Origin: Schmidtea polychroa
Lineage: Eukaryota
DNA length: 64,000 bases
NCBI GenBank assembly: GCA_044892525.1
Contig: CM097885.1
Coordinates: forward strand, 21,392,001 to 21,456,000
Direction: 5' to 3'
The position numbers and the translations under genes are program-made. This document shows, in pieces, positions 11,481 through 48,073 of this stretch (position 1 is its first letter; every line of letters starts with the position of its first letter). The notes under the pieces were generated by a model. It had not been told where the DNA came from. It searched no databases and saw only the letters and a program-made list of their open reading frames with translations.

Positions 11481-12536
11481 AGTACCCTGCTATCTTCTAA
11501 CAATTGCAAATTGACAAGGACTAACGTATAGTCGAAAATTTTTTCATATTAAATATTATTTGCAACAAAAGGCTTAAATTATCATTTAATTGTTTAAAAC
11601 ATATTGTAGGCATGTTTTTTTTTACATATGTGATTGCTTGTATGAATTCGGACGTTATTGAACATTAAATGGTTTTAAAATTTATTTAATTAAAAATTAA
11701 AATTATGTTATTATAAGAACTTTTTTCAATTTTGTATTTATTAAAATTATGTTATTAATAATATATGTAATCTTAATATTATTTTATTATCCAAAATATC
11801 CAAAATAGCACAAAAATATCCAAATCGAATAGCAAAAATCCAAAACGGCTTGGCTAACCCTGAAGTGTCGATTAAGGTCAAACAACTGAAAGAAATTTTA
11901 GTGGAAAACTGGAGTCTGATATCTATAGTTCAGAGTGAGATTGGAAATCTATCACAATTTATCAATGGTAATTTAGCCATATCAAGAAACAGGTAATTTT
12001 AATAGCTATGGCAATTATATTCAATATTGGAATAAGACATAAATAAAGCATTATGTTTCAAGGAAAAGGGAATAAAAATAAAAGCACTATATGAAATCGA
12101 TGTAGATATAAATTTCAAGAGTAAAACGTTGCCAGAGTTGATATTAGAAAGAAATCCTAAGGTTCACGTGCACAATCAAAATTAAGTGCTTTATTATTAG
12201 GTGGCAAAGGACCAGAGGAAGTTCATTTGGGGCTCATGCTAAGTATGGGACAACGAATTACGGCGTAAACATTTAAATGAAGAAGAACATCGAGAGCAAT
12301 GAATAAAAGGTATTATTTAGTAAAAGTAGAAACCATAAAAAGTGAACAATTAAAAAGTAAAATGTAAAAAGGAAACAATGACATCCAATAGCAGAATGCA
12401 ATCACCACTGCAAAATTACAGGCAAAATAATTTTAAAAAATACAGACAATTTCAACGCAGCTTTCCTATATTGAAAAATATTATTGATTTTTTTCATTTT
12501 ATAGCTTGCACAGATCACTGAAATATAGAATAATAT

Positions 12537-14739: not shown

Positions 14740-15530
14740 CCACGGGTATATAGCTTGGGGGTCATTTAGGAATTTTAAGAGTTATCATTTTAAAATCAAA
14801 TATAAGATGAATATATACATATATATACACATACACATATACACACACATATATACATATATATAAAAGTAGTCTATCTTAGTGTAAATTTAGATAAATA
14901 TATAATTTGAGGGGGGTCATTTAGGAAATTTTACCACTTATATTTTTTATTATAATGTAAGTTAAATATATATTAAAATAAGCCAATTTAGTATGTATAA
15001 GTTTGAGGGGGGGGGGTCATGTGTGAACATTTACAATTTACATTTTTAAATATAATATAAGTTAAATATATATTAAAAATAAGTCAATTTAGTATATTTA
15101 AGTAATGGACAATGAATGTATAATTTTGAGGGGGTCAGTTATGAACATTCCCAATTTAGAATTTTAAATATACTATAAGTTAAATATATATTAAAATAAG
15201 TTAATTTAGGATATTTATGCAATGGATAATGAATGTATAATTCGGAGGGGGGTCATTTATGAACATTTACAATTTATATTTTAAAATATACTGTAAGTTA
15301 AATATATATTAAGATAAGCTAATTTAGTATATTTAGGTGGTAGTTGATGACTATATGGTTTGTAGGGGGGTCATTCATAAAAATTTACAATTTAAATTTT
15401 TAAATATAATAAGTTAAATATGTATTAAAATAAGCTCATTTAGTATATTTAGGTGGTAGTTGATGACTATATGGTTTATGGGGGGTCTTTGATGAAAAAT
15501 TTTCAACTATGATGTTAAAGGCAATCTAAG
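14740..15530. repeat. Degenerate tandem array, mostly ~120 bp units with GGGGGTCA cores
   Basis: About 7 recurrences of G-run+TCA...AAGTTAAATATATATTAAAATAAG. Confidence 0.8.
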
Positions 15531-16560
15531 TTAAGTTAAATTTATAGTTTATATTTTAAAGCTAATATAATTTTATAATTTATATTTTTATGAAGTTAAA
15601 TTTATAGTTTATATTTTAGAACTGATATAATTTTATAATTTATACTTTTAAGTTTATAATTTATATTTGGTGAAGTTCAATTTATAGTTTATATTCCTAA
15701 AGCTAATATAATTTTATAATTTGTATTTTTAAGTTTATAATTTATATTTTTATGAAGTTAATTTTATGGTTTATATTTTAAAGCTAATATAATTTTATAA
15801 TTTATACTTTTAAGTTTATAATTTATATTTGGTGAAGTTCAATTTATAGTTTATATTTCTAAAGTTAATATAATTTTATAATTTATATTGTTAAGTTTAT
15901 AATTTATATTTTTATGAAGTTAATTTTATGGTTTATATTTTAAAGCTAATATAATTTTATAATTTATACTTTTAAGTTTATAATTTATATTTGGTGAAGT
16001 TCAATTTATAGTTTATATTTCTAAAATTAATATAATTTTATAATTTATATTGTTAAGTTTATAATTTATATTTTTATGAAGTTAAGTTAAATTTATAGTT
16101 TATGTTCTAAGACTAATCTAATTTTATGATTAATACTTTTAAGATCATGATTTATATTTTGAAGAAATTAAGATTATAATTTATACTTTTACAATCAACT
16201 TAGAGTTATAATTTATAATTTATAGTCAATGTAAATTTGTAATTTATATTTTTAGGAAATTAAATTTATAATTTATACTTCTATAACTAATTATAATTTA
16301 TATTTTTATGAAATTAGGATTATAATTTATACTTTTACAATCAACTTAGAGTTATAATTTATAATTTTTCAGTCAATATAAATTTGTAATTTATATTCTT
16401 AGGAAATTAAATTTATAATTTATACTTTTATAACTAATCATAATTTATATTTTGAAGAAATTAAATCTATAAGTATAATTCATATTTTTATGAAATTGAG
16501 AGGATAATTTATACTTTTATGGGTTTACGATTTGTATTTTTATAGTTAGTTTAGAGTCTA
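15530..16560. repeat. AT-rich hierarchical minisatellite (TTTATAATTTATA core)
   Basis: Directly visible; related tracts at about 52370-52620 and 58570-58810 in the other LTR copies. Confidence 0.85.
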
Positions 16561-20857: not shown

Positions 20858-22129
20858 GTCAATATTACCCCACTGGAAATTTTTCACAAATGGACTTGAA
20901 TTAAAAACGTGAACACACAATACCCAAGTTCATCCATATATCCAAACACTAATAAAATGACTGTTTGTTGGGGTTTGGCTCGTTCTGAGAGCAATTTAGA
21001 TAGCCATGTAGAGGCTAGGTACTGCACAACCCGACCGCGAGAAGCAGCAATTCGGACTGACTTACTCGTCGGATTTAAATTTACATAGAGAATCAATATT
21101 AGGTAACAGTAGATCGATCTTGATCTACACAATCGCACAAACTTCGGGAAATCCCTCCATCTTGATCCATTCTTTTATATAGCGCTGAGAGGCATTAGTT
21201 CCAGCGACTGTGCTTTATCTGAGAACGGTTCGAATAACCGATTTCTTTATTTGAGTGTTGAGCGGCATTTTTTGGAAACACATTATTATTATTTGTATAT
21301 TTTGTGCATAATCAATAAGTCTTTTAGAAATAAATGTCTTGATTAATTCATATCGATTTATTTATATATACCTACACACACATATATTTATATCTTTGGA
21401 GTCAGATATAGTCTGTGTTAGGAAGAATCTATCCATAAGATCGGAACCTAATATGTTCATCATGTGAGTTAGGAACAATTTGAGTGTCCAAGATTTGGGC
21501 TCCCTTGACAAAAAATTTATAATTGACTTTTGAAAATTTGGCAGGTATCTACCATAATTTTATTAATTTAAGCAAGTAGTAGGATTGGAGCTCCCCAGAT
21601 CAGGAGCTCCCCAGATCAGGAGCTCCCCGCATCACATAAAACCCCTCCCCCCCGGAAAAAAAAATTTTTAGCACGATGCCACATATTTTTAGAACTATTA
21701 CGTAATCAATGCCTAATATTTTTAGAACTATTACGTAATTTTATTTTAAATTAAGTGATCTGGCGGGCTCACACTTTTTTTCATCCCAAAAGTTAATGTT
21801 CCCACCATCAGATTTTATTGACCGATACCTCATCTTAAAGCTCAGTCCAAGACCTTTCGAATGAGCTATAGGTATCTTATATATCTTTAATAGTTTTAAT
21901 GTTATTAACATTTAATGACCACCATTTTTTCAAAGTTAAATTATTATTATTTGTCAAAATATTATTAATTGGCACAGCGGGCTCACACTTTTTTTCATCC
22001 CAAAGATTAATGTTCCCGCCAACATATTATATTGATCGATAGCTTATTTTAAAGCTCTGTGCAAGAACTTTCTAATGAGATATAGATTTTTATCATACGA
22101 TGACTCATCACATTTTTAGAACAAAGACA

Positions 22130-22470
22130 ATGAGTCATCATATTTTTAGAACGATGCCTAATATTTTTAGAACTATTACGCAATCGATGCCATATATTTT
22201 TAGAACGAAGCCACATATTTTTAGAACTATTACGTAATCGATGCCTAATATTTTTAGAACGATGCCTAATATTTTTAGAATGATGCATAATATTTTTAGA
22301 ATAGTGCCTCTTATTTTTAGAATGATTACGTCATAATTTTAGAACGATGCCTAATATTTTTAGAACGATGTCTAATATTTAAGAATGATGCCTAATATTT
22401 TTAGAATGATTACGTCATATTTTTAGAACGATGCCTCATTATTTTAGAACGATGCCTAATATTTTTAGAA
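22130..22470. repeat. Subterminal ~21-bp tandem array (ATTTTTAGAACGATGCCTAAT variants)
   Basis: Directly visible; mirrored at about 31318-31665 with a different unit order and number. Confidence 0.9.
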
Positions 22471-23043
22471 CTAATAATTTTTGTTTTAATTATCGATTAC
22501 ATAATAATTTAATTTGTTTAAATCGTTGATTATTATTATTTTTATTATTATTATTATTATTATTATATACTCCGAGTTTATCCGACAAGATATTCTGTCC
22601 CCCTATGGGTATTGCTAGCAAGGGTACTACTCACACTCAACAAGTCACATGGGTACTGTTCATATTATTATTATTATTATTATTATTATTTATTTTTTTT
22701 TCAAAGATATTTAGTTACATGCTCACTGCAAACTAAAGTAAATATGAACAGTATTATCAAATTAAATAAAAATAATAAAACTTTATAAAAATTTAAATTC
22801 TTTTAATGGCTCAAAACAAAGTCCTAATCCATAGTGACAACATTACTAGTTTTCAATAATAAAACAATTTTTAATATACTTTCTATGTTTAAACACTTAA
22901 GGAATGTTTAATAATATTACACAATATAATGATTTTTATCCATAGAAAGAAATACGAAAACTTTTCATTAATAAAAATCAACACAAATCAATGTTTTTAC
23001 AAAGTTATATTAATTTATCACAGGAAAAAGATATTAAAATCGC

Positions 23044-26000
23044 TTAATCACTCAATTGTACATCATCAATATCAATTTCGTCACTCAATTGTACATCATC
23101 AATATCGATTTCGTCACTCAATTGTACATCATCTATATCTATTTCATCATTAGGATCATCACCAGAATCGAAATCTAGACTTAAACCATTGAAAAGTGGA
23201 CCCACTTCCTCATCACCAGAAACAAAATCTGGACTTAATCCTCCGAATAGTGGCCCAACTTCTTCAAATATTTGATCATCATTTATATCATCTAGTGCTA
23301 AATAATGACCAAATGCGAGACTGGAATTTTTCCCCACCCAAAACCGCTTGTCGTCGTTGTTTGACAACGCGATTTTATTGTTTTTAAATGTGTACAATTG
23401 ATGGTTCCGCGTCCCTATCCTACTTTGTGGCACAGAAAATACTACGTTGTTATTGTAGCATTCTAAATATGAATCGTGCCTAATTTCTGTACCTATTAAC
23501 CTGACTCCTTTTGCTTTTAAATGATCTTTAGCCCCTAATAAACTATAGCACTTGGGTCTTAAGAAAACCCATTCCTTATACCCTAGACCTTTACTTTCAT
23601 CTTTAAATTTACCTATCACAGAATCAAGGTTTCTAGAGTATAAGGGATGTGCAGGGTCATAGTTGGAAGTATTTAAAAGATTGTCACGAATCATTGCCGG
23701 CAAAAGAGTGTCAAGCTTACAGTGCCTAACCTCAAGAAAAAAGGAGTCAGTATCGCCGGCAACGATATTTATCTCACATTTAAATTCATTTCTATATTTA
23801 GCCAATTCTATATACTGTGACTGGTACATCCTCAGTTTAGACAGGTCTAGCACCGTTTGGCCAATGTAACTAGGCCTGTCTAAACATATAGAATCCTTAT
23901 TGAGATGTGCAGCAATCAAGTCATCATCAATTTTGATAGATTTCTTGAAAGTCGGCTTTGAAGCATATACAATCATCTTTTCAGCTGAATTGCATAGCCT
24001 CAAATTCATCCGTTTTTTAAGGTTTTCTACGGATTTCCCATACAGACTATTATTAAATAATTTGTATAGATCTCTGTGCAGCTCACATGTAGAATTGGCT
24101 CTCAAATTAGTGTTTTTGTCTATGTAAGATTTAAAAATGGGTGCATGCTTAAATTTGATTGCTCTATGTACATTTTTAATAATAGCCCCCAATTCTATAT
24201 ACAACTTGAGAAGTCGCCAATGAAGAACATGGTTCTTCTTCGGCCAATGCGTGAGCATCAGCTTCTCAACTTTAGAATTTGGCGGGCACATCTTTTCCGG
24301 AGCAAGAGGAAAATCATTCAGAAAGTCATGCAAACAATCAGGTATATCGATATCTACCTCCATAGTATAACCATATGGAAGGTTATCGATATCAGCAATC
24401 ATACATTCATTCAAGACAGAATCAAGATCATCATACACCCAAACAAAGTCAGCATAAGGCAGATTTTGGCTTAAGGCCCAACCATACAAGTTATTAATAT
24501 CAATATACAAGAGTTCTGTGTCTTCAGAACTTGCAACATAATGTTTGTTAACAAATGTTAACCCACCCCGTATCCCTCCTTCATAGAAATTAAACATTTC
24601 CATGTCCTGCAAAAGTTCAATGGGTTCCGTTAATGTCATAAGCGCAGAGACCCATGACATACCGGGAATGCCATAGAAATTAAGAGGCTCAAGACCATTG
24701 TAAGCAATGGCCTTTTCACGGAATTGTTGAAAATAGTCTGCGAGGAGAAACACGTCTAATTTAAGGTAAGTTAACATGTAATCTAACATGTTGTTACAGT
24801 TTTGCTGAGTCCAAATTACTTGGGCTAATGCATATTCATCATTAGACACTGAATCCCAGATAGGAGGCAATTCAAGAGTCGATTCCAGAACCTCAAGAGA
24901 TGTGGCAAAGTCATAAGGAAAGATACCTTTGGATCGAACAATTGCGCCATCGAAAACAGAAGAAGTTAAAGGCAGATCGGAAAGAGTCTTAACCGCTTTT
25001 GCTAAAGAAGAATTAACAAACTGCATGATGTCAATAAAACGAACAGACAATTTGTTAATGTACGCGATAAGAGAGATGAATTTCTCGGTAGTGGTCGGAA
25101 TAATATTTAATTCCCAAGAAGGAAAATTATTGAGACCGTACTTCAAAATATGATGGAGATCATACCCCCTCAAATTGTGAAAAACCACAGGTAACTGTTT
25201 CTGAATTCGTCGAGAAACATTACATTTCCTACAGGCAGCACCAAGATACTTACCTGAAAAGTGACAATGATCCCTAACTCTATTTCTAATAAATTTTTTA
25301 CAAAGGTAGCAGGTTCTGGAATCACGAAAAGCCCGCTCTTCAGCGAAAGACAAGGTTTGCATGGGCTTTTTCCCATTAATTTCGTAATATGGCAGGACAA
25401 TTGTCATAGCAATTTCCTCCACCTTATTCAAGAAAGATAAGATGCAATCATCCCCAACAAACTCATAATAAAATTTAGAGTTATTATAATTATTTATTAA
25501 TAATAAACCTGCTGTTATTGGCAAATGCTTTTGATGGTGTATTATATCCCCAGGTAAAATTGATTCAAAGTCTGCATATATCACGAATGGCGGGGTTATG
25601 GTTTTCGCGAAATTACTAAATATAAGGTTTTTATCTTTAGGTAACGTGTATAGAGTTGTTCCTATCTGGTTTTTAATGCATAAGGCAACGTGAATATCAA
25701 ATGCATTTTTATGTCTAAATCCGTTAAGACAGTGGGGGCACCAGTTCACTTGAAGTATAATGCCGCATTCACTGCTAGAGCGACAATTCATTAGTCTTTA
25801 TAAGTTAAAAACTGCGGTATAATGAAAATTATCACCGTCTTCCAATAAAAGTAAGTATAAGGGTTCACCACCTATAACCTTAGATCGGTGAATTATATCT
25901 AATTGAGGATGATGTGGAATATAATTATCGTCAACTATATTTTCAAAAGGCTTAGCAGGGGTCGTTCTATAAGTTAAAACATTTATTGCTAAATTTAAAT

Positions 26001-26520
26001 CCTTATTTTTCATCTCGAATTTAGGAATATCACATAGTTTCATTGGACAGTCGGAAATGGGGTCAAAATTTAACTCGTCAAGATAATTTTCATAGGAACT
26101 AACTCTATTTCTATTTATATGTACTACATTACGTTTTAAAAGTGCTAAAATACTATATATAAAGCACATATCATCGGTGTTTTTAACATTTACTATTGCA
26201 TTTTTAGATTTTAAAGATGATGGGGTGGGGATATAACTATGTCCAGCTAGCCTATTCATATGTGTAAATTTTGTTAATATAAAATCTATTTCTTTGATTT
26301 TAACAACCCGCCATCCACTACCCAAATATGTGAATTTTTCTATTTTATTATTTAATTTGTGAACCCCCTCACTTAGAAAACTATCTGAAAAAGCCTCTGC
26401 CCTATTCGAGAAGAAATTATCTTTAATTTCACCATCTTTTTCAAATTGAATCAATACGGAGAATTGTATTTTCACCGACCCCATTCTGTTTATTTCATGA
26501 TTTAACTTATTAACGATTTT
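23044..26520 (-). pseudogene. Protein-primed family B DNA polymerase, 5'-truncated, one in-frame TAA at 25798-25800
   Basis: YADFES, endonuclease-VII-like CYLC..DHCH..CRKCN, FHNLRGYD, KGIFPY, DINNLYG, KLFNNSLYGK, GDTDS, DDKR; ORFs 25798-26484 and 23044-25791 share one frame. Confidence 0.93.
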
Positions 26521-26529
26521 ATCGGTTAT

Positions 26530-28463
26530 GGTTATTTGAATGATGTTATGACCGTCTCTCTGATTGTGTTTGCGTATTTTACTACCATATTTCTAATTGT
26601 CGCCGCCGATTTCGGAACAATAAACCCACGAGCTCCTAGCGATGTTCTCAGTTCAGCCGATGTGGCAAATACGCTAAAGGGCAGTCCGTCAAGGGCGGTC
26701 ATTCTAGAAAGAACTGCAGGCAACGACTTGTCATGTTGATTTTGGAAGAAATCGGTGATCAGAGGTTTGGGTTTTTTGGCCGATGACAACGGAGCCGATG
26801 AAAACGAAGCCGATGACGATGCTGCATCTTGGGTCGATTTTCTCTTTAGCAAGTCAATTTCATGGTTTGTTCTTAGATGTGTATGGAGTCCACTGGTACT
26901 GCCACCATGTGATTTTATCTCTTTGTCGCATTTCTTACACTTTGAAAGTTGATTTTCTTTATCACGCAGAAAATAAAACCACACAAAATTTTCGTCTACT
27001 CGTGCGCCGGTGCTGAACTCTTTGAATATTTTTTGGGACATTTTGGGGGTTTCTGGATATTAAATTAATATAAAACTTTTTTTGTCTATTTCTTGTTGTC
27101 TTCAAACAAAAACAAAAATCTGCAAATAAAATCGAACTAATTCATTTAAAGTACCCAAATCTATGTTTATAAATTAAATACTTACTATTTAAATGCAAAT
27201 TTACTAACGTAGACGTATTTATTTGAATAAATATCAATCGGATTTCAATTTAACTACTGAATTATTATATAACGTTATTGTTATTATTGAATTTAAAAGT
27301 AGGTTTCTGAAATTTCGGGTCAATAAAATAATTAAATCTAGCACATCGCATACTAGAAATATTTGGTTAATGGGATTTATGTTTAAATATCCAAAGCAAA
27401 ATTAAGTTTAAAATCATTCTTAAATAAAAATTTTACTTATTTTTAATCTTGATTATTTATATGTTTTTTAGACTTCCAATTATATGACGATCTAGATAAT
27501 AAATTATCAAATGTTACAAGAAACTGTTGTAATTTGTACAACATTAATTGAAAAAACATTTTTTTTACTAAAAAACAACGCATGAGTAAAAAAACCAGAA
27601 AATTTCACTACAAATAGCTATTGTAATAAAAAAGCGCTTATTTTGAAAATAAATGAACAATTTACTCAATTAAAATAATAAGTTAAATAATGAGCATATG
27701 TGGCAATGTTATATTCGTGGACAGATTAAAATCATTTTGCTTTGTCCAAAAATATTTGCGATGATTTCAAATTGAAAAGTAAATAAATAAATAAAAATAC
27801 ATTCATAACAAAAAACCTTCCTACATTATTATTGGATCAGTTCAAATTTCTGAAAAAAACCACGATAAGCAAGCCACCATATTTTTATCAGAGGTTAGGA
27901 AATCTAAGCTTATAGTTTGTCGAGTACTCGAAAGTGCTTTTTTTTGTAAGGGAAGGTTTATTTGCGCGGGTAAAATACAATTCAGAATGCATAAAGTTTT
28001 TTTTATTTAACGTTATCATAATTACTTATAAAACTTTATGCCTAATAATCTATTAGGCATAAAGTTTTTGCATGAGTACTGAAGATATAATAGAGACATT
28101 TGTCTTTTTAAATACTAGTTAAATAATAAATAGTCAGGAAACAATAAATTTAGTCAGGAAAAATTGTAATTGGTCATGAATTTTACAATTTTTAGTTCTG
28201 CATAAACAGTCATGCAAAACCATTAATAGTCCTGCATTCGTCAATTTAGTTATGAAAGTCTAATTTATTTTTGCTTAAAAAAGCAATGCCTTATTATTAT
28301 AATATTTTTTAAGTAAAATTGAGAAACAATTTTAAATATTTTTTATATATCCTATACCGGAAATACCGGCATTGATCCAACTCAATACCGGTATTTCGGT
28401 ACCAGAAAAAAGTCCGGTAATACCGGTAGTACCGATACCGGTATACCGGTATTGAATGCACTA
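26530..28463 (-). mobile_element. hAT transposon 5' half with BED-finger ORF (26532-27041)
   Basis: Minus-strand terminus TAGTGCATTCAATACCGG with ATACCG repeats; VWFYF..CKKC..STSGLHTHLRTNH BED finger and DGLPFS motif. Confidence 0.85.
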
Positions 28464-30732
28464 CTGCTACCTTTGTAAAAAATTTATTAGAAATAGAGTT
28501 AGGGATCATTGTCACTTTTCAGGTAAGTATCTTGGTGCTGCCTGTAGGAAATGTAATGTTTCTCGACGAATTCAGAAACAGTTACCTGTGGTTTTTCACA
28601 ATTTGAGGGGGTATGATCTCCATCATATTTTGAAGTACGGTCTCAATAATTTTCCTTCTTGGGAATTAAATATTATTCCGACCACTACCGAGAAATTCAT
28701 CTCTCTTATCGCGTACATTAACAAATTGTCTGTTCGTTTTATTGACATCATGCAGTTTGTTAATTCTTCTTTAGCAAAAGCGGTTAAGACTCTTTCCGAT
28801 CTGCCTTTAACTTCTTCTGTTTTCGATGGCGCAATTGTTCGATCCAAAGGTATCTTTCCTTATGACTTTGCCACATCTCTTGAGGTTCTGGAATCGACTC
28901 TTGAATTGCCTCCTATCTGGGATTCAGTGTCTAATGATGAATATGCATTAGCCCAAGTAATTTGGACTCAGCAAAACTGTAACAACATGTTAGATTACAT
29001 GTTAACTTACCTTAAATTAGACGTGTTTCTCCTCGCAGACTATTTTCAACAATTCCGTGAAAAGGCCATTGCTTACAATGGTCTTGAGCCTCTTAATTTC
29101 TATGGCATTCCCGGTATGTCATGGGTCTCTGCGCTTATGACATTAACGGAACCCATTGAACTTTTGCAGGACATGGAAATGTTTAATTTCTATGAAGGAG
29201 GGATACGGGGTGGGTTAACATTTGTTAACAAACATTATGTTGCAAGTTCTGAAGACACAGAACTCTTGTATATTGATATTAATAACTTGTATGGTTGGGC
29301 CTTAAGCCAAAATCTGCCTTATGCTGACTTTGTTTGGGTGTATGATGATCTTGATTCTGTCTTGAATGAATGTATGATTGCTGATATCGATAACCTTCCA
29401 TATGGTTATACTATGGAGGTAGATATCGATATACCTGATTGTTTGCATGACTTTCTGAATGATTTTCCTCTTGCTCCGGAAAAGATGTGCCCGCCAAATT
29501 CTAAAGTTGAGAAGCTGATGCTCACGCATTGGCCGAAGAAGAACCATGTTCTTCATTGGCGACTTCTCAAGTTGTATATAGAATTGGGGGCTATTATTAA
29601 AAATGTACATAGAGCAATCAAATTTAAGCATGCACCCATTTTTAAATCTTACATAGACAAAAACACTAATTTGAGAGCCAATTCTACATGTGAGCTGCAC
29701 AGAGATCTATACAAATTATTTAATAATAGTCTGTATGGGAAATCCGTAGAAAACCTTAAAAAACGGATGAATTTGAGGCTATGCAATTCAGCTGAAAAGA
29801 TGATTGTATATGCTTCAAAGCCGACTTTCAAGAAATCTATCAAAATTGATGATGACTTGATTGCTGCACATCTCAATAAGGATTCTATATGTTTAGACAG
29901 GCCTAGTTACATTGGCCAAACGGTGCTAGACCTGTCTAAACTGAGGATGTACCAGTCACAGTATATAGAATTGGCTAAATATAGAAATGAATTTAAATGT
30001 GAGATAAATATCGTTGCCGGCGATACTGACTCCTTTTTTCTTGAGGTTAGGCACTGTAAGCTTGACACTCTTTTGCCGGCAATGATTCGTGACAATCTTT
30101 TAAATACTTCCAACTATGACCCTGCACATCCCTTATACTCTAGAAACCTTGATTCTGTGATAGGTAAATTTAAAGATGAAAGTAAAGGTCTAGGGTATAA
30201 GGAATGGGTTTTCTTAAGACCCAAGTGCTATAGTTTATTAGGGGCTAAAGATCATTTAAAAGCAAAAGGAGTCAGGTTAATAGGTACAGAAATTAGGCAC
30301 GATTCATATTTAGAATGCTACAATAACAACGTAGTATTTTCTGTGCCACAAAGTAGGATAGGGACGCGGAACCATCAATTGTACACATTTAAAAACAATA
30401 AAATCGCGTTGTCAAACAACGACGACAAGCGGTTTTGGGTGGGGAAAAATTCCAGTCTCGCATTTGGTCATTATTTAGCACTAGATGATATAAATGATGA
30501 TCAAATATTTGAAGAAGTTGGGCCACTATTCGGAGGATTAAGTCCAGATTTTGTTTCTGGTGATGAGGAAGTGGGTCCACTTTTCAATGGTTTAAGTCTA
30601 GATTTCGATTCTGGTGATGATCCTAATGATGAAATAGATATAGATGATGTACAATTGAGTGACGAAATCGATATTGATGATGTACAATTGAGTGACGAAA
30701 TTGATATTGATGATGTACAATTGAGTGATTAA
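28464..30732 (+). pseudogene. Second (inverted) copy of the pPolB C-terminal ~755 codons
   Basis: Translation identical to the minus-strand copy from CYLCKK onward; the ORF-track ATG comes from the hAT TIR. Confidence 0.92.
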
Positions 30733-33377
30733 GCGATTTTAATATCTTTTTCCTGTGATAAATTAATATAACTTTGTAAAAACATTGATTTGTGTTGATT
30801 TTTATTAATGAAAAGTTTTCGTATTTCTTTCTATGGATAAAAATCATTATATTGTGTAATATTATTAAACATTCCTTAAGTGTTTAAACATAGAAAGTAT
30901 ATTAAAAATTGTTTTATTATTGAAAACTAGTAATGTTGTCACTATGGATTAGGACTTTGTTTTGAGCCATTAAAAGAATATAAATTTTTATAAAGTTTTA
31001 TTATTTTTATTTAATTTGATAATACTGTTCATATTTACTTTAGTTTGCAGTGAGCATGTAACTAAATATCTTTGAAAAAAAAATAAATAATAATAATAAT
31101 AATAATAATATGAACAGTACCCATGTGACTTGTTGAGTGTGAGTAGTACCCTTGCTAGCAATACCCATAGGGGACAGAATATCTTGTCGGATAAACTCGG
31201 AGTATATAATAATAATAATTATAATAATAATAATAATAATAATAAAAATAATAATAATAATCAACGATTTAAATAAATTAAATTATTATGTAATCGATAA
31301 TTAAAACAAAAATTATTAGTTCTAAAAATATTAGGCATCGTTCTAAAATAATGAGGCATCGTTCTAAAAATATGACGTAATCATTCTAAAAATATTAGGC
31401 ATCGTTCTAAAATTATGACGTAATCATTCTAAAAATAAGAGGCACTATTCTAAAAATATTATGCATCATTCTAAAAATATTAGGCATCGTTCTAAAAATA
31501 TTAGGCATCGATTACGTAATAGTTCTAAAAATATTAGGCATCGTTCTAAAAATATTAGGCATCGATTACGTAATAGTTCTAAAAATATGTGGCTTCGTTC
31601 TAAAAATATATGGCATCGATTGCGTAATAGTTCTAAAAATATTAGGCATCGTTCTAAAAATATGATGAGTCATCGTATGATAAAAATCTATATCTCATTA
31701 GAAAGTTCTTGCACAGAGCTTTAAAATAAGCTATCGATCAATATAATATGTTGGCGGGAACATTAATCTTTGGGATGAAAAAAAGTGTGAGCCCGCTGTG
31801 CCAATTAATAATATTTTGACAAATAATAATAATTTAACTTTGAAAAAATGGTGGTCATTAAATGTTAATAACATTAAAACTATTAAAGATATATAAGATA
31901 CCTATAGCTCATTCGAAAGGTCTTGGACTGAGCTTTAAGATGAGGTATCGGTCAATAAAATCTGATGGTGGGAACATTAACTTTTGGGATGAAAAAAAGT
32001 GTGAGCCCGCCAGATCACTTAATTTAAAATAAAATTACGTAATAGTTCTAAAAATATTAGGTATTGATTACGTAATAGTTCTAAAAATATGTGGCATCGT
32101 GCTAAAAATTTTTTTTTCCGGGGGGGGAGGGGGTATATGTGATGCGGGAAGCTCCTGATCTGGGGAGCTCCAATCCTACTACTTAAGCACGATGATCTAA
32201 CCTGTGACTTCGATTTCTAGTATCGGTACCACTCTGATGTTTCTTATGTGTTCTGTTAGAAATTTGAGTCTAGAATAGTTTAAATGATCGTTACCCATAT
32301 GCCACTGGACATTATGGGAACGAGCTCATAATGTCCTATACCATAAAAGAGTGAAGATTAGATGTAAAGTTATTTATGTTGTCTATATGCGGTATAGGTT
32401 TATTTCATTACAGAAAAATAGAAAATTGTTGATTCCACACGGGCCACTGGCGGATCAGGCGTTTGTTTATCATTCCAAAAACCCAAGAGCGACGAAAAGA
32501 ATATGAAAATAAATTTCAACTGTAATTTTGGAGTCTAACAAAAAATTATTGATATTTTTTCAGAATTCACTGAATATTTTTGCCCGTTTGTTAAATTGAA
32601 AAACTTGAATCAAAACCCACCCGACGAATTTATCTGACTTAAATTCTGCATTCCAGCCTGAGCGATGTTCGTCTGAGTTTGTATGAGTGTAATTGTCACA
32701 AATATACATCTCGATTTTAAAAATTTTTACATTAAAATCTCGTGACCCCAAGATTTTGCTAAGAAAAAAAAAGAAAAAAAATCAAATTTTATTTTATGTA
32801 AATCGAACTGGCACAAGGCCGAAGGGGAGAACGGTTCTCACCCTTAAATAAACTGAAATTTTTATGTGTATTCTCTTTGGATGCTGGAGTTAGAAACTCT
32901 GGCATCAAACGTGGTTTTTTCTAAGTATTTTATCACCAATCATCTTGGGCATACATTACATAGGAGATTAATAGTTTTTTTCACAATCAAGTATTTTATC
33001 AGCAAGCGGTGGCTTAGTTTTTTCTTTCACAGTATCAGTCTTCGAATTCTGGCATCAAACGCGGTTCTCCATAAAGTATTCTATCAGCAAGCATTCTGTG
33101 CCCACACATATCTAAATGAATTAAATAATTCGGAGTAAGAAGACTCCATTTGCGATTTTTGTAGCCGTCAGATATTATACAATATATTATAGTATGGATT
33201 GGAAGGAATGGTGTTTAAGGTAAGGTGGTTTAAAGGAATAGGTTTTATATTACAAATATTAACGACTAAAAAGGTATTATCAGTTAGGCGGAGCCCATAC
33301 AAGGACTCCTACATTGACCTATTGATAATATAAACTCTTAATGACGTTTTCCCTTCTTCTTTTTGTTATTAGCTTTT

Positions 33378-35295: not shown

Positions 35296-35609
35296 TTATC
35301 GAAATATTCGTAGTAAAACGCCTTGGTTTATTAAATTTTCGCAATCAGAGAGCATCAAAAAATGAGTGCTCCCCTTAAACAAATGTATTATTCCATCAAT
35401 GGTTTCCAACTCTCCGTAATCTTCCAAGCATTTCACTTCGACTTTCAAATTTTTAGGTGGTTGACTTCTTTCTGACAAATCTAATCCGTAACACGAATTT
35501 AGCATTAATGAACCTAAACTTTTATTATAGTTCTTCAACCAATCTTTTTCACTTTCTGTCATACACGCTTGAATTTCTTGTGGAAGAATATGACCATAAA
35601 TCCAACGAT
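35296..35609 (-). pseudogene. GINS1: GINS complex subunit 1 (Psf1), C-terminal ~100 codons
   Basis: YRWIYGHILP...EKDWLKNYNKSL...GLDL...PPKNLKVEVKCLEDYGELET..HFLMLSDCENLINQGVL matches the Psf1 C-terminal pattern; the 5' part is replaced by TIR sequence. Confidence 0.85.
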
Positions 35610-36773
35610 ATTTTGTGCAGGGATGCGCCCTTATTTTTCTATTTATAAATGTTGCTAGGTATTTTCCTTGATATTTATGAATATTTAACCTATCTTCCAA
35701 AGGTTTTAAGCAGGGATCGGCCCTTATTTCCAAGTTAATCCACACTTCCCATAATATTTAAATTATTCTTCAAAGGATTTGAGCAGGGATCTGCTTGTAT
35801 TTCTAATTCTAACCTATATTCCAATGGAAATACTTACAGCGACAGCCCCCCCAACAAAACATACCTCCATTACGCTTAAACCATTAGAAAAACAACCTAA
35901 AACTTATACTTTTATAGTATTTTAACCCTATATTTTGAAAACAACCACCCTTAATGGCTCTAACTGTTTTAATCTTTAAAGCCTCAAACTCAAAAGCTTC
36001 AAACTAAAAACATAAAGAGAATAGAAAAGAAAATGGTATTATGAAAAAGTTAGAGGGCTATTTTGGTTAGGGATATAAACACACTACTTGAGGATGTCAA
36101 CTAGCAAGTTGCTATTTGACTAATTTATAATTTTATAAATCTTAATCTTGATGTCTTGAAGAATAAAAAATTTTATGAAATAGTAAAACTGCTCTGAGAG
36201 GACAGTGGTATTTTTTTTTTCATTGTCCTCTCAACAGTTTTTTTGATCCGGATCATTTTTTTATTCAACCTCTTTCGTTTATCGAATCTCTTCCAATATA
36301 CAAGCTGGCCAGACTCATACATCAGAATCAATTCGATAATAGCAGCACACCTTATTATTCGCTTCTCGCTCGAATACGATTTCATCGGCGTTTTAAGCGT
36401 GCTGCTCGAAAGTACAAATGAATTCGAAAGTGAATCCGAAAGAGGTCCGAAAACAACTGAGAAATAAATGTGCACATTATAGAATCGATCCGGGGTGTGT
36501 TCGAAAGACTGGTGGCGATAATTATCGGTTCACCATCACACCCGTTTCAATAATTTTTTTTCATATTTATGTTTAAAAAATAAAATAAAATATATAAAAT
36601 AAAATAAAAATAAATAAAATAAAATATAAATTTAAGATACCCACAATATTATTTTCAAATTTTTAATATTATTTTATGTTGAAAAAAAACTAACCTCAGA
36701 TGTGATTTGAACCGCTATCTATTTTAACCACTGTGCCAGTCTAGCCCACTGCGCTATCTGGGTTTGGATTTTT
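35610..36773. repeat. Left TIR
   Basis: Reverse complement of 50148-51316. Confidence 0.92.
36682..36763 (-). ncRNA. tRNA-sized Pol III-type unit in the left TIR
   Basis: A box TAGCGCAGTGG, B box GGTTCAAATC, terminal stem, T8 run. Confidence 0.55.
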
Positions 36774-36842
36774 ATTTATAAAATTCTAAAAATTAGACTG
36801 TCACATTATGAAAATGAATAATATATAAATTTAAAAAATAAA

Positions 36843-39800
36843 ATGAAAACAGAGTATCCAATAAAAAATTTTTTTCTAAAAATGAATTGTAATATTTGCA
36901 ATAAAGTTTTTAAAAATAAAACTGGATTAATTTCTCACTTAAAATCGAAAGCTCATTTATTAAAAGAAAATAATCTTAATGATACAAATTCAAAACTTTG
37001 TCCTAAATGTAAAGGAAGATTTCTACATTCTGGATATAATAAACATTTTGAAAATTGTATTGGGAAAAATAGAGAAATATTTACATGTCCTCATTGTAAC
37101 TTTTCAACAAAACTAAATTTCTATTATTTAGAACATATAAAAGAATGTAAAAATAAAAAACAAAATTCTGACGATGAGGAATGTCATTCAGAAGGAGAAC
37201 CTGATCATGTTGAAAGAGAAAAATATAACTGGGATAATTTTAATCATATAGATGAATTTCAATTAAAAATTAATGGACCTGCAACTCCTGTAGAATATAT
37301 AAATAAAAATAAAAAAAATATTAAAAATTCTTTCACTGAAGCTTTAAAAAATTATAAACCGACAAGGTATAATGTTATAAAATATAAAATTATAATCAAA
37401 GCAAAATACTGGCGAGGAGCAGAAGAAAAGACAACACCCTTAGATGTTGAAATTGGAATACCTTTTAAATATTTATTTTCAACTAAAGGATTTGATAAAA
37501 CCATCAAAGAAATAATTAAAGCAGCAGAAGCAAAACAAGAGGAAGTAGAAAATGAATTAGGAGATTCAAACTTAGTATTCAACTCTTTCCAAACTTTAGT
37601 GATTGATTATTGGAGAGGATTACCACCCAATCCTAAATCTTATATTCCTACACCCTTTAAATCTAAAAATGTTATAAACATACAGAATAATGATAACAAA
37701 TGTTTCATCTGGTCAATACTTGCACATTTACATCCTCAAGAATCAAACCCTCAAAGAGTTTCAAAATACAAACAATATGAAAATGAATTAATATTTCCCA
37801 AAGGATTCAAACATCCAATGAAACTAGAAGACATTCCAGAATTTGAAAGTTTAAATAATCTTAAAATTAATATTTATGAACGTGTTAAAGGGAAACATGT
37901 TAATAGTAGAGAAATTATTCCAATTTACATTTCTGATAGTGGAACCAATGGTAACGAAGTACAAGAAAACACTAGAGAAATATATCTTTTAATCTTGGAA
38001 CAACAAAATAATCAACATTATGTTTTAATAAAAAACTTTCAAGCTTTTACATCACCAGAGGATCCAACTAGTGGAGGAGGAACATGTAAAAGATGTCTTC
38101 ATTATTCAACAATTAAAAACTCTATGATTAAACATACAAGATTTTGTGAAAAAGATGAACCAGCTTTAATTAACATGCCTAAAGATCCCAAGATGCATTT
38201 TAAAAACTTTTCAAATTTACTACAAACAGTAGGAGTGCTTTATGGAGACTTTGAATCTATAAATCGTAAACAAGATTTGGTTAAACAATATTTAAAAATA
38301 ATAGAAAAAAATAAACTCATGGATTCATGGAACTCCTCAGGAGAGAAGATGAAACCAGAGAGGATGAAAGCCTTTCTAAGAAAAAGAAACAAACCTAATA
38401 GTGTTAAAAAAACTAAACAATTACCATCTGCTTATAAATTATTATTTAAAAGTAATTATCCTGAACTCATAGAATCTAGAGAATATACATTTCAAGGAAT
38501 TTCAGAAACAGAAGTCTTGAATCATTTTACTAAAAATATAAATGATCTAGAACATGAAATATTTAAAGTATTAAAAACAAAATATGAAATAAATTTTTCA
38601 ATTGAACAATTGGAAGAATATGAAAACTCTTCAAATTGTTGGATGTGTAAACCACCATTTGAGGATCAACTCCTTGAGGAACCTCCAAATAATGAAACTA
38701 TTGAAGAAGAAGAACAAAGAATGTTTCATGAAAGACAATCTTCAAATATAAAAGTCCCCGATCATGATCATTTAAAAAAGGAAAATAATTATCGAGGAGC
38801 AGCTCATAAAAATTACAATCTTAATTGTCATACTCCTAAATTTGTACCTGTTATATTTCATAATCTTTTTGGTTATGACATACATCTATTTATTAAACAT
38901 TTAGCAGAAAATGCTAAAAACTCTTTCAAAGTTATAGGACTTACAAAGGAAAAATATAAATCAGTAGAATATGGAAAATTAAAATTTATAGACTCGTTAA
39001 ACTTTTTCCAAATGTCTCTAGATGCAATAGCAAAAACATTGAAACCAGAAAAATTTAAAATCGCTCGAAAATTCTTGGAAATAAATAATATTCCTCCAGA
39101 AGAATATCCTACATGTTTAGCAAAAGGAATATATCCTTATGACTATGTTGAATCGTTTGAGAGATATAATGAAACAAGTCTTCCTAGCCAAGAAGATTTC
39201 TCTTCACAACTTCAAAAATATCATATTACAGATCAAGAATATTCTCGAGCAAATAAAATGTGGGAATTATTCAAGTGTAAAACTTTAGGAGAATATACAA
39301 GTATGTATTTATCTTTGGATGTTTATATTCTAGCCGATTGTTTTGAAGAATTTACAAAATCTTTTGTTCTTAAACCTTACAATTATATAACAGCACCCTC
39401 TTTAGCTTGGGATACTTTATTATATACCATTTGGACTTCAAATATAGAAGAATCTGATAAAATTATAGATCTTTTAACTAACCTCGATATGTTTAATCAA
39501 ATTAAAACAAACATTAGAGGAGGAGTCTCTTCAGTAATGTGGAATCGAGAAATAAAAGCTAGAAATGCAATAACTACTAGCAGAATGCTTTCAAAGACCT
39601 CTGATCCATATATAAAACTTAACAATGAGGGATTAAAAGAATTATTAGAAACAATGAAAAATCTTCTATTTATACTTTATATAGATGCAACAGCTCTATA
39701 TTCAGGAATTATGACTCAATATTTACCGATGAGTGACTTTCATGAAATATACTCTGAAGATTCCTCAGAAGAATCCTTAAAAGACCTTATGAAAGAAATA

Positions 39801-41318
39801 CTTTCAACACCTAAAGATTCTCCAATAGGTTACTTTGTAGAATGTGACTTATTATATCCAGATGATATAAAATCAGGAACAAGATATTTCCTTTTAGCTC
39901 CTGTAAGAAGAAAGATTAATGTTAACGAACGTTCTGAATGGCAAATCTCACAAGATAAACCTCCAACAATGAAACTTCTTTGTGATCAAACAGATCGAAC
40001 TTATTATCTTTGTCACTATAGACTCCTCCAATTTTATCTTTCACGAGGTATGATATTAAAAAAAGTTCATAGTGTCATAAGATTTAAACAAGCTCCATTC
40101 GTGAAAGTTTTTATAGAAGAAAACATTAGGTGTCGAAACATTGCAAAAAGAGAAGGTAACCTTTTTAAAGATAATAATTATAAACTTTTAAACAATTCAG
40201 TCTTTGGGAAAACAATGGAGAATGTTGATAAATATACTCATATAGAACTTTTAACTAATACTCATAAAGATATTAAGCGTTATAATCGTATGCTAGGAAA
40301 GCCTACATTTAAAAACGCACAAGTATTTTCTGAAAGTCTTACTGCAGTAGAACTAAAGAATTTTGAGAAAACATACAACAAACCAATATTTATAGGGTTT
40401 TCAATTTTAGAACTTTCAAAATTACAAATGTATGAAACATATTATAACATCTTACAACCTATATATGGTTCTAATATATCACTGCATGCAATGGATACAG
40501 ATTCAATGTTTTTAACAATAAGAACTCATGATTTACAAAGAGATATAGCTGAAAATCCTATACTTTCAAATTTAATAAATTCATCTGGAGAACTATTTTC
40601 ATTTAAAGATGAAAAACCTTTTACTCCTATAGAAAATGGGATATTTATTCGTGCTAAACAATATTCATACGAAACATTTACAAATCCTAAATTTGAAACC
40701 CGAGAAATTATATTTAAAACTCCAGAAAAAGAGGAAATTATTTCATTTAAATATCCTATATTCCCTAATGAAGAAAAACCTGTAAAGGATAACAGATGTA
40801 AAGGAATACAGAAATCAGTTGCAAAGAATCTTTCTCATCAAGATTATATAGATACATTAAACCCAGGTCATAAAGATAAAATTGATGAAATACATCAACT
40901 TAAAAGTGAAAACCATGATATTCACTTGATAGAATCTCAAAAAGTATCATTATCAAATTATGATGATAAAAGATTCATCCTAAGTGATTTAAAGACAACT
41001 CTACCTATAGGAAATAATTTAATCCCTATAATAAAAAATCTTGCTAGTTTGAATAAGTTATATGATACAAAGATTACTGATCTTGATATTTATAATGTTG
41101 AAATCATTTATCCCGAGAGAGAAATCGAGAAGCCTTTATATTCTCAAGTTTTTAATCCTATATGTTTAGAACTTAAATATTTTAATACTGAAGGATTATC
41201 AGATAAAGAATTTAAAGATCATAAAAAGGTTCTAAAAATTAAATTCGAAAAGTTTAAAGATCATAAAGAGGTTCTAAAAATTAAATTCGAAAAGTTAACA
41301 TCAGATTCTATCAAATGA
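36843..41318 (+). CDS. Protein-primed DNA polymerase B with N-terminal zinc fingers
   Basis: 1491 aa; C2H2 motifs, NNDNKCFIWSILA, YGDFES, FHNLFGYD, KGIYPY, RGG, DATALYS, KLLNNSVFGK, MDTDS, DDKR. Confidence 0.95.
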   Translation: MKTEYPIKNFFLKMNCNICNKVFKNKTGLISHLKSKAHLLKENNLNDTNSKLCPKCKGRFLHSGYNKHFENCIGKNREIFTCPHCNFSTKLNFYYLEHIKECKNKKQNSDDEECHSEGEPDHVEREKYNWDNFNHIDEFQLKINGPATPVEYINKNKKNIKNSFTEALKNYKPTRYNVIKYKIIIKAKYWRGAEEKTTPLDVEIGIPFKYLFSTKGFDKTIKEIIKAAEAKQEEVENELGDSNLVFNSFQTLVIDYWRGLPPNPKSYIPTPFKSKNVINIQNNDNKCFIWSILAHLHPQESNPQRVSKYKQYENELIFPKGFKHPMKLEDIPEFESLNNLKINIYERVKGKHVNSREIIPIYISDSGTNGNEVQENTREIYLLILEQQNNQHYVLIKNFQAFTSPEDPTSGGGTCKRCLHYSTIKNSMIKHTRFCEKDEPALINMPKDPKMHFKNFSNLLQTVGVLYGDFESINRKQDLVKQYLKIIEKNKLMDSWNSSGEKMKPERMKAFLRKRNKPNSVKKTKQLPSAYKLLFKSNYPELIESREYTFQGISETEVLNHFTKNINDLEHEIFKVLKTKYEINFSIEQLEEYENSSNCWMCKPPFEDQLLEEPPNNETIEEEEQRMFHERQSSNIKVPDHDHLKKENNYRGAAHKNYNLNCHTPKFVPVIFHNLFGYDIHLFIKHLAENAKNSFKVIGLTKEKYKSVEYGKLKFIDSLNFFQMSLDAIAKTLKPEKFKIARKFLEINNIPPEEYPTCLAKGIYPYDYVESFERYNETSLPSQEDFSSQLQKYHITDQEYSRANKMWELFKCKTLGEYTSMYLSLDVYILADCFEEFTKSFVLKPYNYITAPSLAWDTLLYTIWTSNIEESDKIIDLLTNLDMFNQIKTNIRGGVSSVMWNREIKARNAITTSRMLSKTSDPYIKLNNEGLKELLETMKNLLFILYIDATALYSGIMTQYLPMSDFHEIYSEDSSEESLKDLMKEILSTPKDSPIGYFVECDLLYPDDIKSGTRYFLLAPVRRKINVNERSEWQISQDKPPTMKLLCDQTDRTYYLCHYRLLQFYLSRGMILKKVHSVIRFKQAPFVKVFIEENIRCRNIAKREGNLFKDNNYKLLNNSVFGKTMENVDKYTHIELLTNTHKDIKRYNRMLGKPTFKNAQVFSESLTAVELKNFEKTYNKPIFIGFSILELSKLQMYETYYNILQPIYGSNISLHAMDTDSMFLTIRTHDLQRDIAENPILSNLINSSGELFSFKDEKPFTPIENGIFIRAKQYSYETFTNPKFETREIIFKTPEKEEIISFKYPIFPNEEKPVKDNRCKGIQKSVAKNLSHQDYIDTLNPGHKDKIDEIHQLKSENHDIHLIESQKVSLSNYDDKRFILSDLKTTLPIGNNLIPIIKNLASLNKLYDTKITDLDIYNVEIIYPEREIEKPLYSQVFNPICLELKYFNTEGLSDKEFKDHKKVLKIKFEKFKDHKEVLKIKFEKLTSDSIK

Positions 41319-41423
41319 TTTTTTTCTTTTAAAAATGTCAACAATTAATTTAAGAGTGACAACATCAACCTTTTGAAGGGCAATAAATTTTTTTAAATAA
41401 TCATCCATTTTAGTATGAAGTTT

Positions 41424-42023
41424 TTATGTATGATTCTTTAACCACTTCTCTCGTTTAATTTTTTTAGAATATTCATTAGTTATAACATTAGCACTTTTTA
41501 ATCTATTAATATTATTTTTAATATCTTGTATTATTTGATTTGATTTCATTATTTCTTCGTCTGTCAGGATTCCATCTTCTAAAGCTTTCAATTGAAATAA
41601 AAATAATTTTGATATTCCTAATTCTATTGATAAACAAACTTCTCTATATAAACTTTTCTTTTTAGAAGTATAAGATAAAGAAACTATTTCAGTTAAGAAA
41701 CCATCAGCTACTGAAATACTTCCAAGTATTACAGGTGCAATTGTTAAAACTGGTAAAGTTATAGGTAAAATAACTGTTAATATTGCAGATGCAAATCCTA
41801 AAGAATAACCTATAACTTTTAAAACTGTATTCCCTTTATTCCATCTATTTTTAATTTTTTTATAATGTTTTAATAAATCTTGTAAATGTAATGCTTCTGA
41901 TTTAAATTCTTTTACTCTCATAATTTCAAGTTCTGTGAGAGCTGAAGGCTTGGGACCTTTGGAAGAATAATATCCTGATGATCTCAATTCTGGATAAATT
42001 TTTTCTTCTCTTACTTCTTCCAT
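41424..42023 (-). CDS. Small membrane protein with central hydrophobic hairpin, of a type seen in Polintons/adintoviruses
   Basis: Hydrophobic stretch VIGYSLG...VILGSISV followed by KALEDGILTDEE. Confidence 0.6.
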   Translation of the reverse strand: MEEVREEKIYPELRSSGYYSSKGPKPSALTELEIMRVKEFKSEALHLQDLLKHYKKIKNRWNKGNTVLKVIGYSLGFASAILTVILPITLPVLTIAPVILGSISVADGFLTEIVSLSYTSKKKSLYREVCLSIELGISKLFLFQLKALEDGILTDEEIMKSNQIIQDIKNNINRLKSANVITNEYSKKIKREKWLKNHT

Positions 42024-42031
42024 TTTAATAA

Positions 42032-42840: not shown

Positions 42841-43092
42841 AATCCCAAAAGAATCAAAGTATATAGATTTATTATATATACAAACCCAATGAGATCCTTT
42901 CTCATTTGAATTTTGATAATTGATTATTATATTCTGGGGACTCCGTCTAAGGGGAGTACCTCCAATTTTATATAATTCATCGTTCATTAATATTTTAATT
43001 TTTAAATTTAAATAATCTGCATAATCTTTTAAATCAAAATTTGTTTTTGCATTTATTCCAAATGTTTTTAAAAAATCTAATATTGAAGCCAT
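42840..43092 (-). pseudogene. Adenain-like cysteine protease, N-terminal half
   Basis: IINY..GSHWVCI..IYFDSFG (His and Asp present); the catalytic Gln/Cys segment is absent. Confidence 0.85.
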
Positions 43093-43100
43093 TTTGTATT

Positions 43101-43940: not shown

Positions 43941-43962
43941 TTTAATGGTATTAAAAATGGTA

Positions 43963-44520: not shown

Positions 44521-44535
44521 TTTATAATAAACAAA

Positions 44536-45327: not shown

Positions 45328-45338
45328 GGCTTGTCGAC

Positions 45339-46736: not shown

Positions 46737-46753
46737 TTTAAAATGTTAAAATA

Positions 46754-48046: not shown

Positions 48047-48073
48047 TTTTATAATAAAAATTTTAAAAATGAC

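What the first reader, a model, noticed from the sequence alone, without database searches (positions are those of the whole stretch)
21575..32183. A Polinton integrated as a giant palindrome of two polymerase ends (copy-back-like defective genome)
Seen: arms 21575-25312 and 28464-32183 (~3.7 kb each, including ~2.3 kb of polB) are inverted copies, and there is no integrase, ATPase or capsid. The whole unit is bounded by a direct TSD TAAGCA rather than by inverted flank. Inference: the palindrome existed before insertion and was integrated in trans, like a snap-back defective interfering genome, possibly helped by elements such as the one at 35610.
Basis: partly seen in the sequence, partly recalled or inferred. 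Interest (0 to 1): 0.75.

Follow-up and report, generated by a model that had tools for sequence, protein, structure and literature searches.

The report
Palindromic Polinton remnant with transposon scar
A 10.6-kb mirror-image piece of a virus-like Polinton transposon, with a broken DNA-polymerase gene in each arm, sits between a 6-base target duplication; it likely entered the chromosome already mirror-shaped and likely lost its original middle later, when an unrelated cut-and-paste transposon jumped in and a deletion followed.

Summary
In detail: arms 21575-25312 and 28464-32183 are inverted copies (1 substitution in the inner 2,647 nt), with (AGT)2 ends and a direct TAAGCA duplication; no integrase, ATPase or capsid. 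Public-run contigs show both outer junctions (27 letters on the element side, under the tool's 31-letter rule) and an empty site with one TAAGCA, so a fold-back artefact is unlikely. Best reading: a palindromic, polB-only non-autonomous Polinton derivative integrated in trans, later hit by a hAT and centre-deleted. Main rival: the hAT end itself made the second arm in place. The element at 35610 is an unlikely helper (polB 26% identical, unrelated ends). The scan noted palindromic polB-only families in this genome before, on other DNA; I could not check that. No paper on them was found. This copy cannot show how the palindrome arose.

The parts
21569..21574 (+). Left copy of 6-bp target-site duplication TAAGCA
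   Evidence: empty site with one copy in run X1
21575..22520 (+). Left terminal repeat proper (AGTAGT end, 16-bp repeats, C/A tract, 109-bp internal duplication, 21-bp array); inner limit approximate
   Evidence: depth drops more than tenfold near 22540 and many contigs leave the stretch near 22477
22521..23043 (-). Non-coding stretch 3' of polB, present in both arms
23044..25797 (-). Left polB, 917-codon open stretch (exonuclease, palm motifs, acidic C-terminal repeats), reading outward to the terminus
   Evidence: (PF03175 E 2e-25)
25798..26549 (-). 5' part of left polB (region with the Cys/His motifs that PMC11161782 assigns to vOTU; assignment by eye), separated by an in-frame stop at 25798-25800 and cut off at 26549; start codon and about 100-170 N-terminal residues absent
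   Evidence: family contigs run on into other letters behind 26549
26547..26549 (.). Joint J1 between polB and hAT, 3-nt microhomology
   Evidence: polB contigs end at 26549, hAT contigs start at 26547 (table 8); sequence
26547..28463 (-). 5' 1.9 kb of a young hAT transposon: terminus TAGTG (fits YARNG), ATACCGGT-type subterminal repeats, 1.4-kb leader, first ~165 of ~660 transposase codons with BED finger
   Evidence: (160/168 identical to P0121); contigs with 0-2 differences
28463..28464 (.). Joint J2: hAT terminus joined without microhomology to polB at the point equal to 25312/25313
28464..30732 (+). Right polB, 3' 2.27 kb only, identical to the left copy, no start of its own
30733..31240 (+). 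Non-coding stretch 3' of right polB (mirror of 22521-23043; limit approximate)
31241..32183 (-). Right terminal repeat ending ACTACT
   Evidence: junction contigs in X19 and X20
32184..32189 (+). Right copy of target-site duplication TAAGCA

Best explanation
This is a real 10.6-kb insertion with Polinton ends, a 6-bp target duplication and a broken polymerase gene in each mirror-image arm; it is likely a copy of a palindromic, polymerase-only Polinton derivative that was likely integrated by another Polinton's integrase, and its middle was likely lost afterwards. Order of events (inferred): (1) a linear end-polB...polB-end palindrome of perhaps 11-14 kb was integrated as one piece; (2) a hAT transposon inserted, antisense, into the right-arm polB, which made joint J2; (3) one deletion between 3-nt microhomologies ran from the 5' part of the left polB into the hAT transposase gene and removed the old symmetry centre, the 5' parts of both polB copies and the 3' half of the hAT (joint J1). 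The copy is now dead for polymerase in cis but keeps two intact ends.
For: Shown: TSD and end motifs match vertebrate Maverick (AGT)2 ends and 6-bp TSD (PMC8097293 passages). Junction contigs with 0 differences: left in X19 (1 of 4 runs listed), right in X19 and X20 (2 of 4 runs). Empty site: in X1 a contig joins letters matching the left flank (26 of 30, one gap, compared by eye) to one TAAGCA and the right flank; in X20 a second path of depth 7 enters at the same place and merges with the filled path of depth 20. Arms nearly the same age along their length: outside arrays 3 substitutions in 569 outer nt vs 1 in 2,409 inner nt, p 0.02, or 0.10 if two neighbours count as one event. Both arms share letters that family contigs lack (23177, 23673, 24398). 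The end-plus-3'-polB arrangement is multi-copy: depth 7-54, 97-174 and 668-1131 times flank depth in X20, X1, X19 (the tool warns that depth is no copy number). hAT is young and multi-copy (about 14-16 times flank depth in X1) and its contigs run unbroken past J1 in X1 and X20, so the hAT-bearing form is not a major path. This order needs only ordinary steps once a palindromic parent exists; earlier scan notes report such families of 9.6-15.9 kb in this genome (unchecked).
Against: The palindromic parent was not seen by me: no genome is held and sequence look-ups in earlier findings returned nothing. J2 sits exactly at a transposase end, which is also the mark of alternative transposition. The outer zone is somewhat more diverged than the inner zone, and one shared letter (23673) has about one-haplotype depth in X19 and none in X1 or X20; both fit a second arm copied in place. 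J1 and J2 were not seen as bridging contigs (88,501 pieces not shown). In 5 of 54 related loci a putative capsid gene faces polB from downstream, so a plain fold-back of that layout would give inward-facing polB, whereas here polB faces outward.
Confidence: 0.62

Rival explanations
1. hAT-driven rearrangement in place: a non-palindromic Polinton inserted first, a hAT landed inside it, and aberrant (alternative) transposition joined the hAT 5' end to polB on the sister chromatid; aborted re-replication and recombination in the terminal repeats restored the right flank. The palindrome would then be a local accident.
For: J2 lies exactly at a YARNG terminus with no microhomology; the left arm is uninterrupted at the matching point; inner arms are almost identical while outer repeats differ more; maize Ac makes inverted duplications and fused broken ends this way (bioRxiv 2020.01.07.897926 passages).
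Against: No second end of this hAT in the window (1 match); the inverted copy stops exactly at the Polinton end instead of running into the flank, so an extra recombination is needed; no trace of integrase, ATPase or capsid genes is left; the divergence gradient is weak (p 0.02-0.10).
Confidence: 0.17
2. Arm replacement by break repair: a break inside a Polinton (integrated, or as a free linear replicon) was repaired by copying one arm onto the other end, lengthening the terminal repeat to include polB; the hAT insertion and deletion are separate.
For: Shared near-private letters in both arms; break-induced copying of one arm extends terminal repeats of protein-capped linear Streptomyces replicons (PMC7205883 passages).
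Against: If done in place after the hAT insertion it needs a hAT-free template that shares rare letters with the right arm; if done on a free replicon it merges with the best explanation.
Confidence: 0.11
3. The hAT-bearing, centre-deleted form arose elsewhere and was itself copied to this site in trans.
For: Both ends are intact; nothing dates J1 and J2 after the insertion.
Against: hAT contigs pass J1 unbroken in X1 and X20 and hAT depth does not step there in X1 (733 vs 706), so the form is rare or absent in those runs; contigs drop rare paths, so this is weak.
Confidence: 0.05
4. Assembly artefact (fold-back read or arms swapped between copies).
For: No record spans the whole unit; junction contigs have 27 letters on the element side; study P10 may be the source of the assembly.
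Against: Direct TSD with different flanks, empty site in another study (X1), arms that differ in array copy number, and inner joints that fall on a transposon end and on family boundaries.
Confidence: 0.05

Closest known systems
Polinton/Maverick elements of animals (PMC8097293, PMC10748475, PMC11161782, PMC6431247; passages read)
   Same: (AGT)2 ends, 6-bp TSD, protein-primed family B polymerase; closest polB relatives (48-55%) lie in metagenome loci L004 and L005 with rve integrase, A32-type ATPase and a TBP-like gene.
   Different: Inverted arms of 3.7 kb that include coding sequence (published TIRs 46-1,447 bp in vertebrates; 100-1,500 bp generally); two polB copies facing outward; no integrase, ATPase, protease or capsid; 10.6 kb.
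Copy-back and snap-back defective viral genomes (PMC13506859, passages read)
   Same: Both ends derive from one end of the parent; depends on helper functions.
   Different: Described there mainly for RNA viruses; here chromosomally integrated DNA with a TSD, and the centre is a hAT scar, not a polymerase turn-round point. Symmetric adenovirus-12 recombinants, poxvirus terminal transpositions and hairpin derivatives of yeast linear plasmids are closer DNA analogues (recalled, no call).
Ac/Ds alternative transposition, composite insertions, Ac killer / Mu killer (bioRxiv 2020.01.07.897926, passages read)
   Same: Inverted duplication whose inner border is a hAT terminus, with a fractured hAT.
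   Different: There the duplication runs into host flank and carries an 8-bp TSD; here it ends at Polinton termini with a 6-bp TSD and the hAT itself is not duplicated.
hAT superfamily transposon related to P0121 (660 aa; zf-BED, PF05699)
   Same: 95% identical N-terminal transposase, YARNG terminus.
   Different: Only the 5' 1.9 kb remains; 3' end and second TSD are gone.
Terminal-repeat extension in Streptomyces linear replicons (PMC7205883, passages read)
   Same: Protein-capped linear replicon whose inverted ends grow by copying one arm.
   Different: Bacterial chromosomes with an internal origin; no integration.

Membership tests
Polinton/Maverick (intact) | (AG)3 or (AGT)2 terminal motif | tested here: met
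   AGTAGT...ACTACT; motif from PMC8097293
Polinton/Maverick (intact) | 6-bp target-site duplication | tested here: met
   empty site
Polinton/Maverick (intact) | Protein-primed family B polymerase | tested here: met
   PF03175 E 2e-25; 63% to P0001; both copies broken
Polinton/Maverick (intact) | Terminal inverted repeats of 0.05-1.5 kb | tested here: inconclusive
   Arms are 3.7 kb; a ~0.95-kb outer zone is shared by many more copies (depth step) and may be the family TIR
Polinton/Maverick (intact) | Retroviral-like integrase | tested here: not met
Polinton/Maverick (intact) | Packaging ATPase, protease, capsid genes | tested here: not met
   spacer fully accounted for by polB and hAT
Snap-back / copy-back defective genome | Both ends complementary copies of one parental end | tested here: met
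Snap-back / copy-back defective genome | Polymerase turn-round junction at the centre | tested here: not met
   Centre is J1 (microhomology) + hAT + J2 (hAT end)
Snap-back / copy-back defective genome | Made and amplified as a free replicon with helper proteins; interferes with helper | not testable with these tools
   Only contigs, no raw or long reads
hAT superfamily (the insert) | YARNG terminus | tested here: met
   TAGTG at 28463-28459; motif from PMC3014272
hAT superfamily (the insert) | BED-finger DDE transposase with hAT dimerisation domain | tested here: met
   zf-BED; 160/168 identical to P0121, which carries PF05699; the domain itself is deleted here
hAT superfamily (the insert) | 8-bp TSD | not testable with these tools
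   Second end deleted
Alternative-transposition product (Ac/Ds type) | Rearrangement border at a transposon terminus | tested here: met
   J2
Alternative-transposition product (Ac/Ds type) | Second nearby terminus, 8-bp TSD, duplication extending into host flank | tested here: not met
   One terminus in the window; flanks not duplicated

The most novel reading that the evidence does not exclude
Palindromic, polymerase-only Polinton derivatives are a self-renewing class of integrating satellites: a fold-back replicon needs only one end, regenerates its second arm at each round of protein-primed copying, supplies polymerase and borrows integrase and perhaps capsid from a full Polinton. This young, polymorphic copy, with rare letters mirrored in both arms, would be a record of that arm-from-arm copying, and long hairpin transcripts from such copies could silence the helper family.
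Probability: 0.4. Interest if true: 0.75.

Novelty: new variant of a known kind. Interest (0 to 1): 0.5.

Why it matters
Polinton replication has been inferred mostly from gene content. Integrated palindromes made of one end would be natural products of that replication and would show that integrase accepts such ends in trans. This locus adds an empty-site check and rare letters shared by both arms. It also warns that the centre of such palindromes is often secondary: here it is a hAT scar and says nothing direct about the fold-back step. If instead the hAT made the second arm, it is a clean animal case of alternative transposition inside another element.

Tried and rejected
No whole genome is held, so no census of copies. 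Sequence and relative look-ups in earlier findings were empty (words). Viral contigs gave no relative of polB or of the hAT. 54 metagenome loci: 0 of 54 start or end with a Polinton end motif and none matches the terminal repeat by blastn; 17 of 54 were self-compared and none has long inverted arms; short-read contigs would collapse such arms, so this is no evidence. The 403-aa L004 gene called putative capsid has no Pfam or PDB match; the label rests on size and position. A strong age gradient between outer and inner arms, suggested by a first alignment, shrank when arrays were aligned and masked. The terminal 86 nt do not fold better than shuffles (z -1.6). A hAT-polB fusion protein was rejected: the frames differ (coordinates). 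The element at 35610 was rejected as likely helper. The 16 runs with a word share under half were not used as evidence, except X3, laid. PMC5797480 is not held. Supplements were not read; Repbase could not be searched and may hold such elements.

Full report
Observation. The unit spans 21575-32183 (10,609 nt). Its arms, 21575-25312 and 28464-32183, are inverted copies. The inner 2,647 nt differ by one substitution; the outer ~1.09 kb by 17 substitutions and 12 gaps, mostly in tandem arrays or homopolymer runs. The ends read AGTAGT and ACTACT, and TAAGCA flanks the unit as a direct repeat (chance 0.0007 for a random pair). These are the end motif and TSD length used to define vertebrate Mavericks (PMC8097293, passages). 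Each arm holds 2,269 nt of polB reading outward. No integrase, ATPase or capsid gene is present. The host is an animal-like eukaryote; 'planarian' comes only from an earlier scan note.

Is it real? No genome is held. 22 public runs were listed, 6 with at least half of the words; 5 of the 22 were laid, all as short-read contigs. The left junction is in one X19 contig with no difference (21445-21601, depth 142 against 237 in the flank; 1 of 4 runs listed; 88,501 pieces not shown). The right junction is in X19 and X20 contigs with no difference (2 of 4 runs listed; 1,129 pieces not shown). Each has 27 letters on the element side, below the tool's 31-letter rule, and their study may be the source of the assembly. 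In X1, from another study, a contig joins letters matching the left flank (26 of 30, one gap, by eye) to a single TAAGCA and the right flank; in X20 a path of depth 7 enters at the same point and merges with the filled path of depth 20 into one of depth 25. The target lies in a low-copy repeat, so the empty form may be an allele or a paralogue; either way the two flanks belong together. No record spans the unit, and the inner joints were not seen in contigs. An artefact is unlikely (0.05) but is not excluded by long reads.

The spacer is fully accounted for. 25313-26549 continues the left polB towards its 5' end, with an in-frame stop at 25798-25800; against six relatives it lacks its start and about 100-170 residues. 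26547-28463 is the 5' part of a hAT transposon on the minus strand: BED finger, 160 of 168 residues identical to the start of a 660-aa hAT transposase, subterminal repeats and a TAGTG end that fits the YARNG motif (PMC3014272, passage). polB contigs stop matching at 26549 and hAT contigs start at 26547: joint J1 has 3 nt of microhomology. At joint J2 the hAT terminus meets the right arm with no overlap, at a point where the left arm is uninterrupted. The hAT is young (0-2 differences in long contigs) and multi-copy (14-16 times flank depth in X1). So neither polB can work in cis, and no copy-back junction is visible.

Order of events. Both arms share letters that the family contigs almost wholly lack (23177, 23673, 24398), so they come from one molecule or a narrow sublineage. 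Outside arrays the outer zone has 3 substitutions in 569 nt and the inner 1 in 2,409 nt (p 0.02; 0.10 if two neighbours are one event): a weak hint that the inner arms are younger. The end-plus-3'-polB arrangement is multi-copy in three runs (7-54, 97-174, 668-1131 times flank depth; depth is no copy number). The simplest path is: palindromic parent integrated in trans, hAT insertion in the right polB, one microhomology deletion removing the centre (central deletion of long palindromes is recalled knowledge). All three steps are inferred. The path needs a palindromic parent, which I could not see. Earlier scan notes describe high-copy palindromic polB-only and gene-less Polinton families of 9.6-17.4 kb in this genome and one case of secondary centre deletion. 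They are unchecked AI notes, and look-ups by sequence did not link this copy to them; they moved my odds from about 55:30 for in-place change to 0.62 for a ready-made palindrome. The main rival is alternative transposition by the hAT end, as for maize Ac (bioRxiv 2020.01.07.897926, passages); against it, there is no second hAT end in the window, and the duplication ends exactly at the Polinton terminus. Arm replacement by break repair, as in Streptomyces linear replicons (PMC7205883, passages), is a third route.

Helper. The element at 35610-51316 has integrase, A32 ATPase, double-jelly-roll capsid and PLA2-like genes, but its polB is 26% identical, it shares no nucleotide match with this unit, and its ends lack AGTAGT and a TSD. 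Closer relatives are in metagenomes: of 54 loci, L004 and L005 (54% and 48% polB identity) carry rve integrase, A32-type ATPase and a TBP-like gene. A helper of that clade is more likely (inference; earlier notes report TBP-encoding Polintons in this genome, unchecked). In 5 of 54 loci a putative capsid gene faces polB from downstream, so polB there points inward; the outward polB here would need a parent with another layout.

Known or new. It works like a non-autonomous Polinton derivative but fails the intact-Polinton test (no integrase or virion genes) and the copy-back test at the centre. Published TIRs are 46-1,447 bp (PMC8097293) or 100-1,500 bp (PMC10748475, passages). Copy-back and snap-back genomes are defined in PMC13506859 (passages); pPolB domains in PMC11161782 (passages). 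Searches found no paper on palindromic polB-only Polintons (listings read; passages of PMC6431247, PMC8532177 and bioRxiv 2025.12.11.693146; the last reports a Maverick expansion in Dugesia, and PMC8532177 reports piRNA silencing of planarian Polintons). sought DNA-virus and linear-plasmid analogues and gave little. Supplements and Repbase were not seen and may hold such elements.

Verdict. Real, young, polymorphic insertion; new variant of a known kind; interest 0.5. The palindromic derivative is worth a specialist's attention, but this copy is decayed, its centre is secondary, and an in-place origin keeps about 0.28.

Noticed in passing
window 35296-35612 and 35610-51316: The second Polinton abuts a coding stretch of the host replication gene PSF1/GINS1 (human residues 89-194, E 4e-23), with no TSD and no AG/AGT end motif; the far flank reads like the preceding PSF1 residues with a few codons missing (recalled motif, not tested). 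Possibly an insertion into an essential gene without integrase marks, or a mis-assembly.
   Followed up: partly
window 44279-50676: The second Polinton has a rearranged right end: 44279-45526 repeats at 48600-49846 (3 substitutions), 47779-48601 repeats at 49853-50676 (1 substitution), with an internal piece of its terminal repeat at 48008-48601.
   Followed up: partly
window 27377-28043: A common internally deleted form of the hAT skips 665 nt here (depth 6000 in X19, 165 in X20). A perfect 18-bp hairpin lies at 28030-28068.
   Followed up: no
window 21763-21871 and 21977-22085 (mirrored in the right arm): A 109-bp, 86%-identical internal duplication in the terminal repeat, outside the 21-bp arrays.
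   Followed up: no
L004 11333-11779, L005 10321-10764: Full Polintons closest to this polB encode a ~150-aa TBP-like protein (PF00352, E 5e-18 and 2e-17) in metagenome contigs.
   Followed up: partly
window 23048-23266: polB ends in acidic 33-nt and 54-nt tandem repeats, identical in both arms.
   Followed up: no
window 14887-16550: Satellite-like array of 81-nt and 118-nt units, with a related patch at 52320-52620.
   Followed up: no
window 2364-2831, 9814-10293, 11060-11500: Other DNA-transposon remnants: Tc5/pogo-type DNA-binding domain, hAT dimerisation domain, DDE_3.
   Followed up: no
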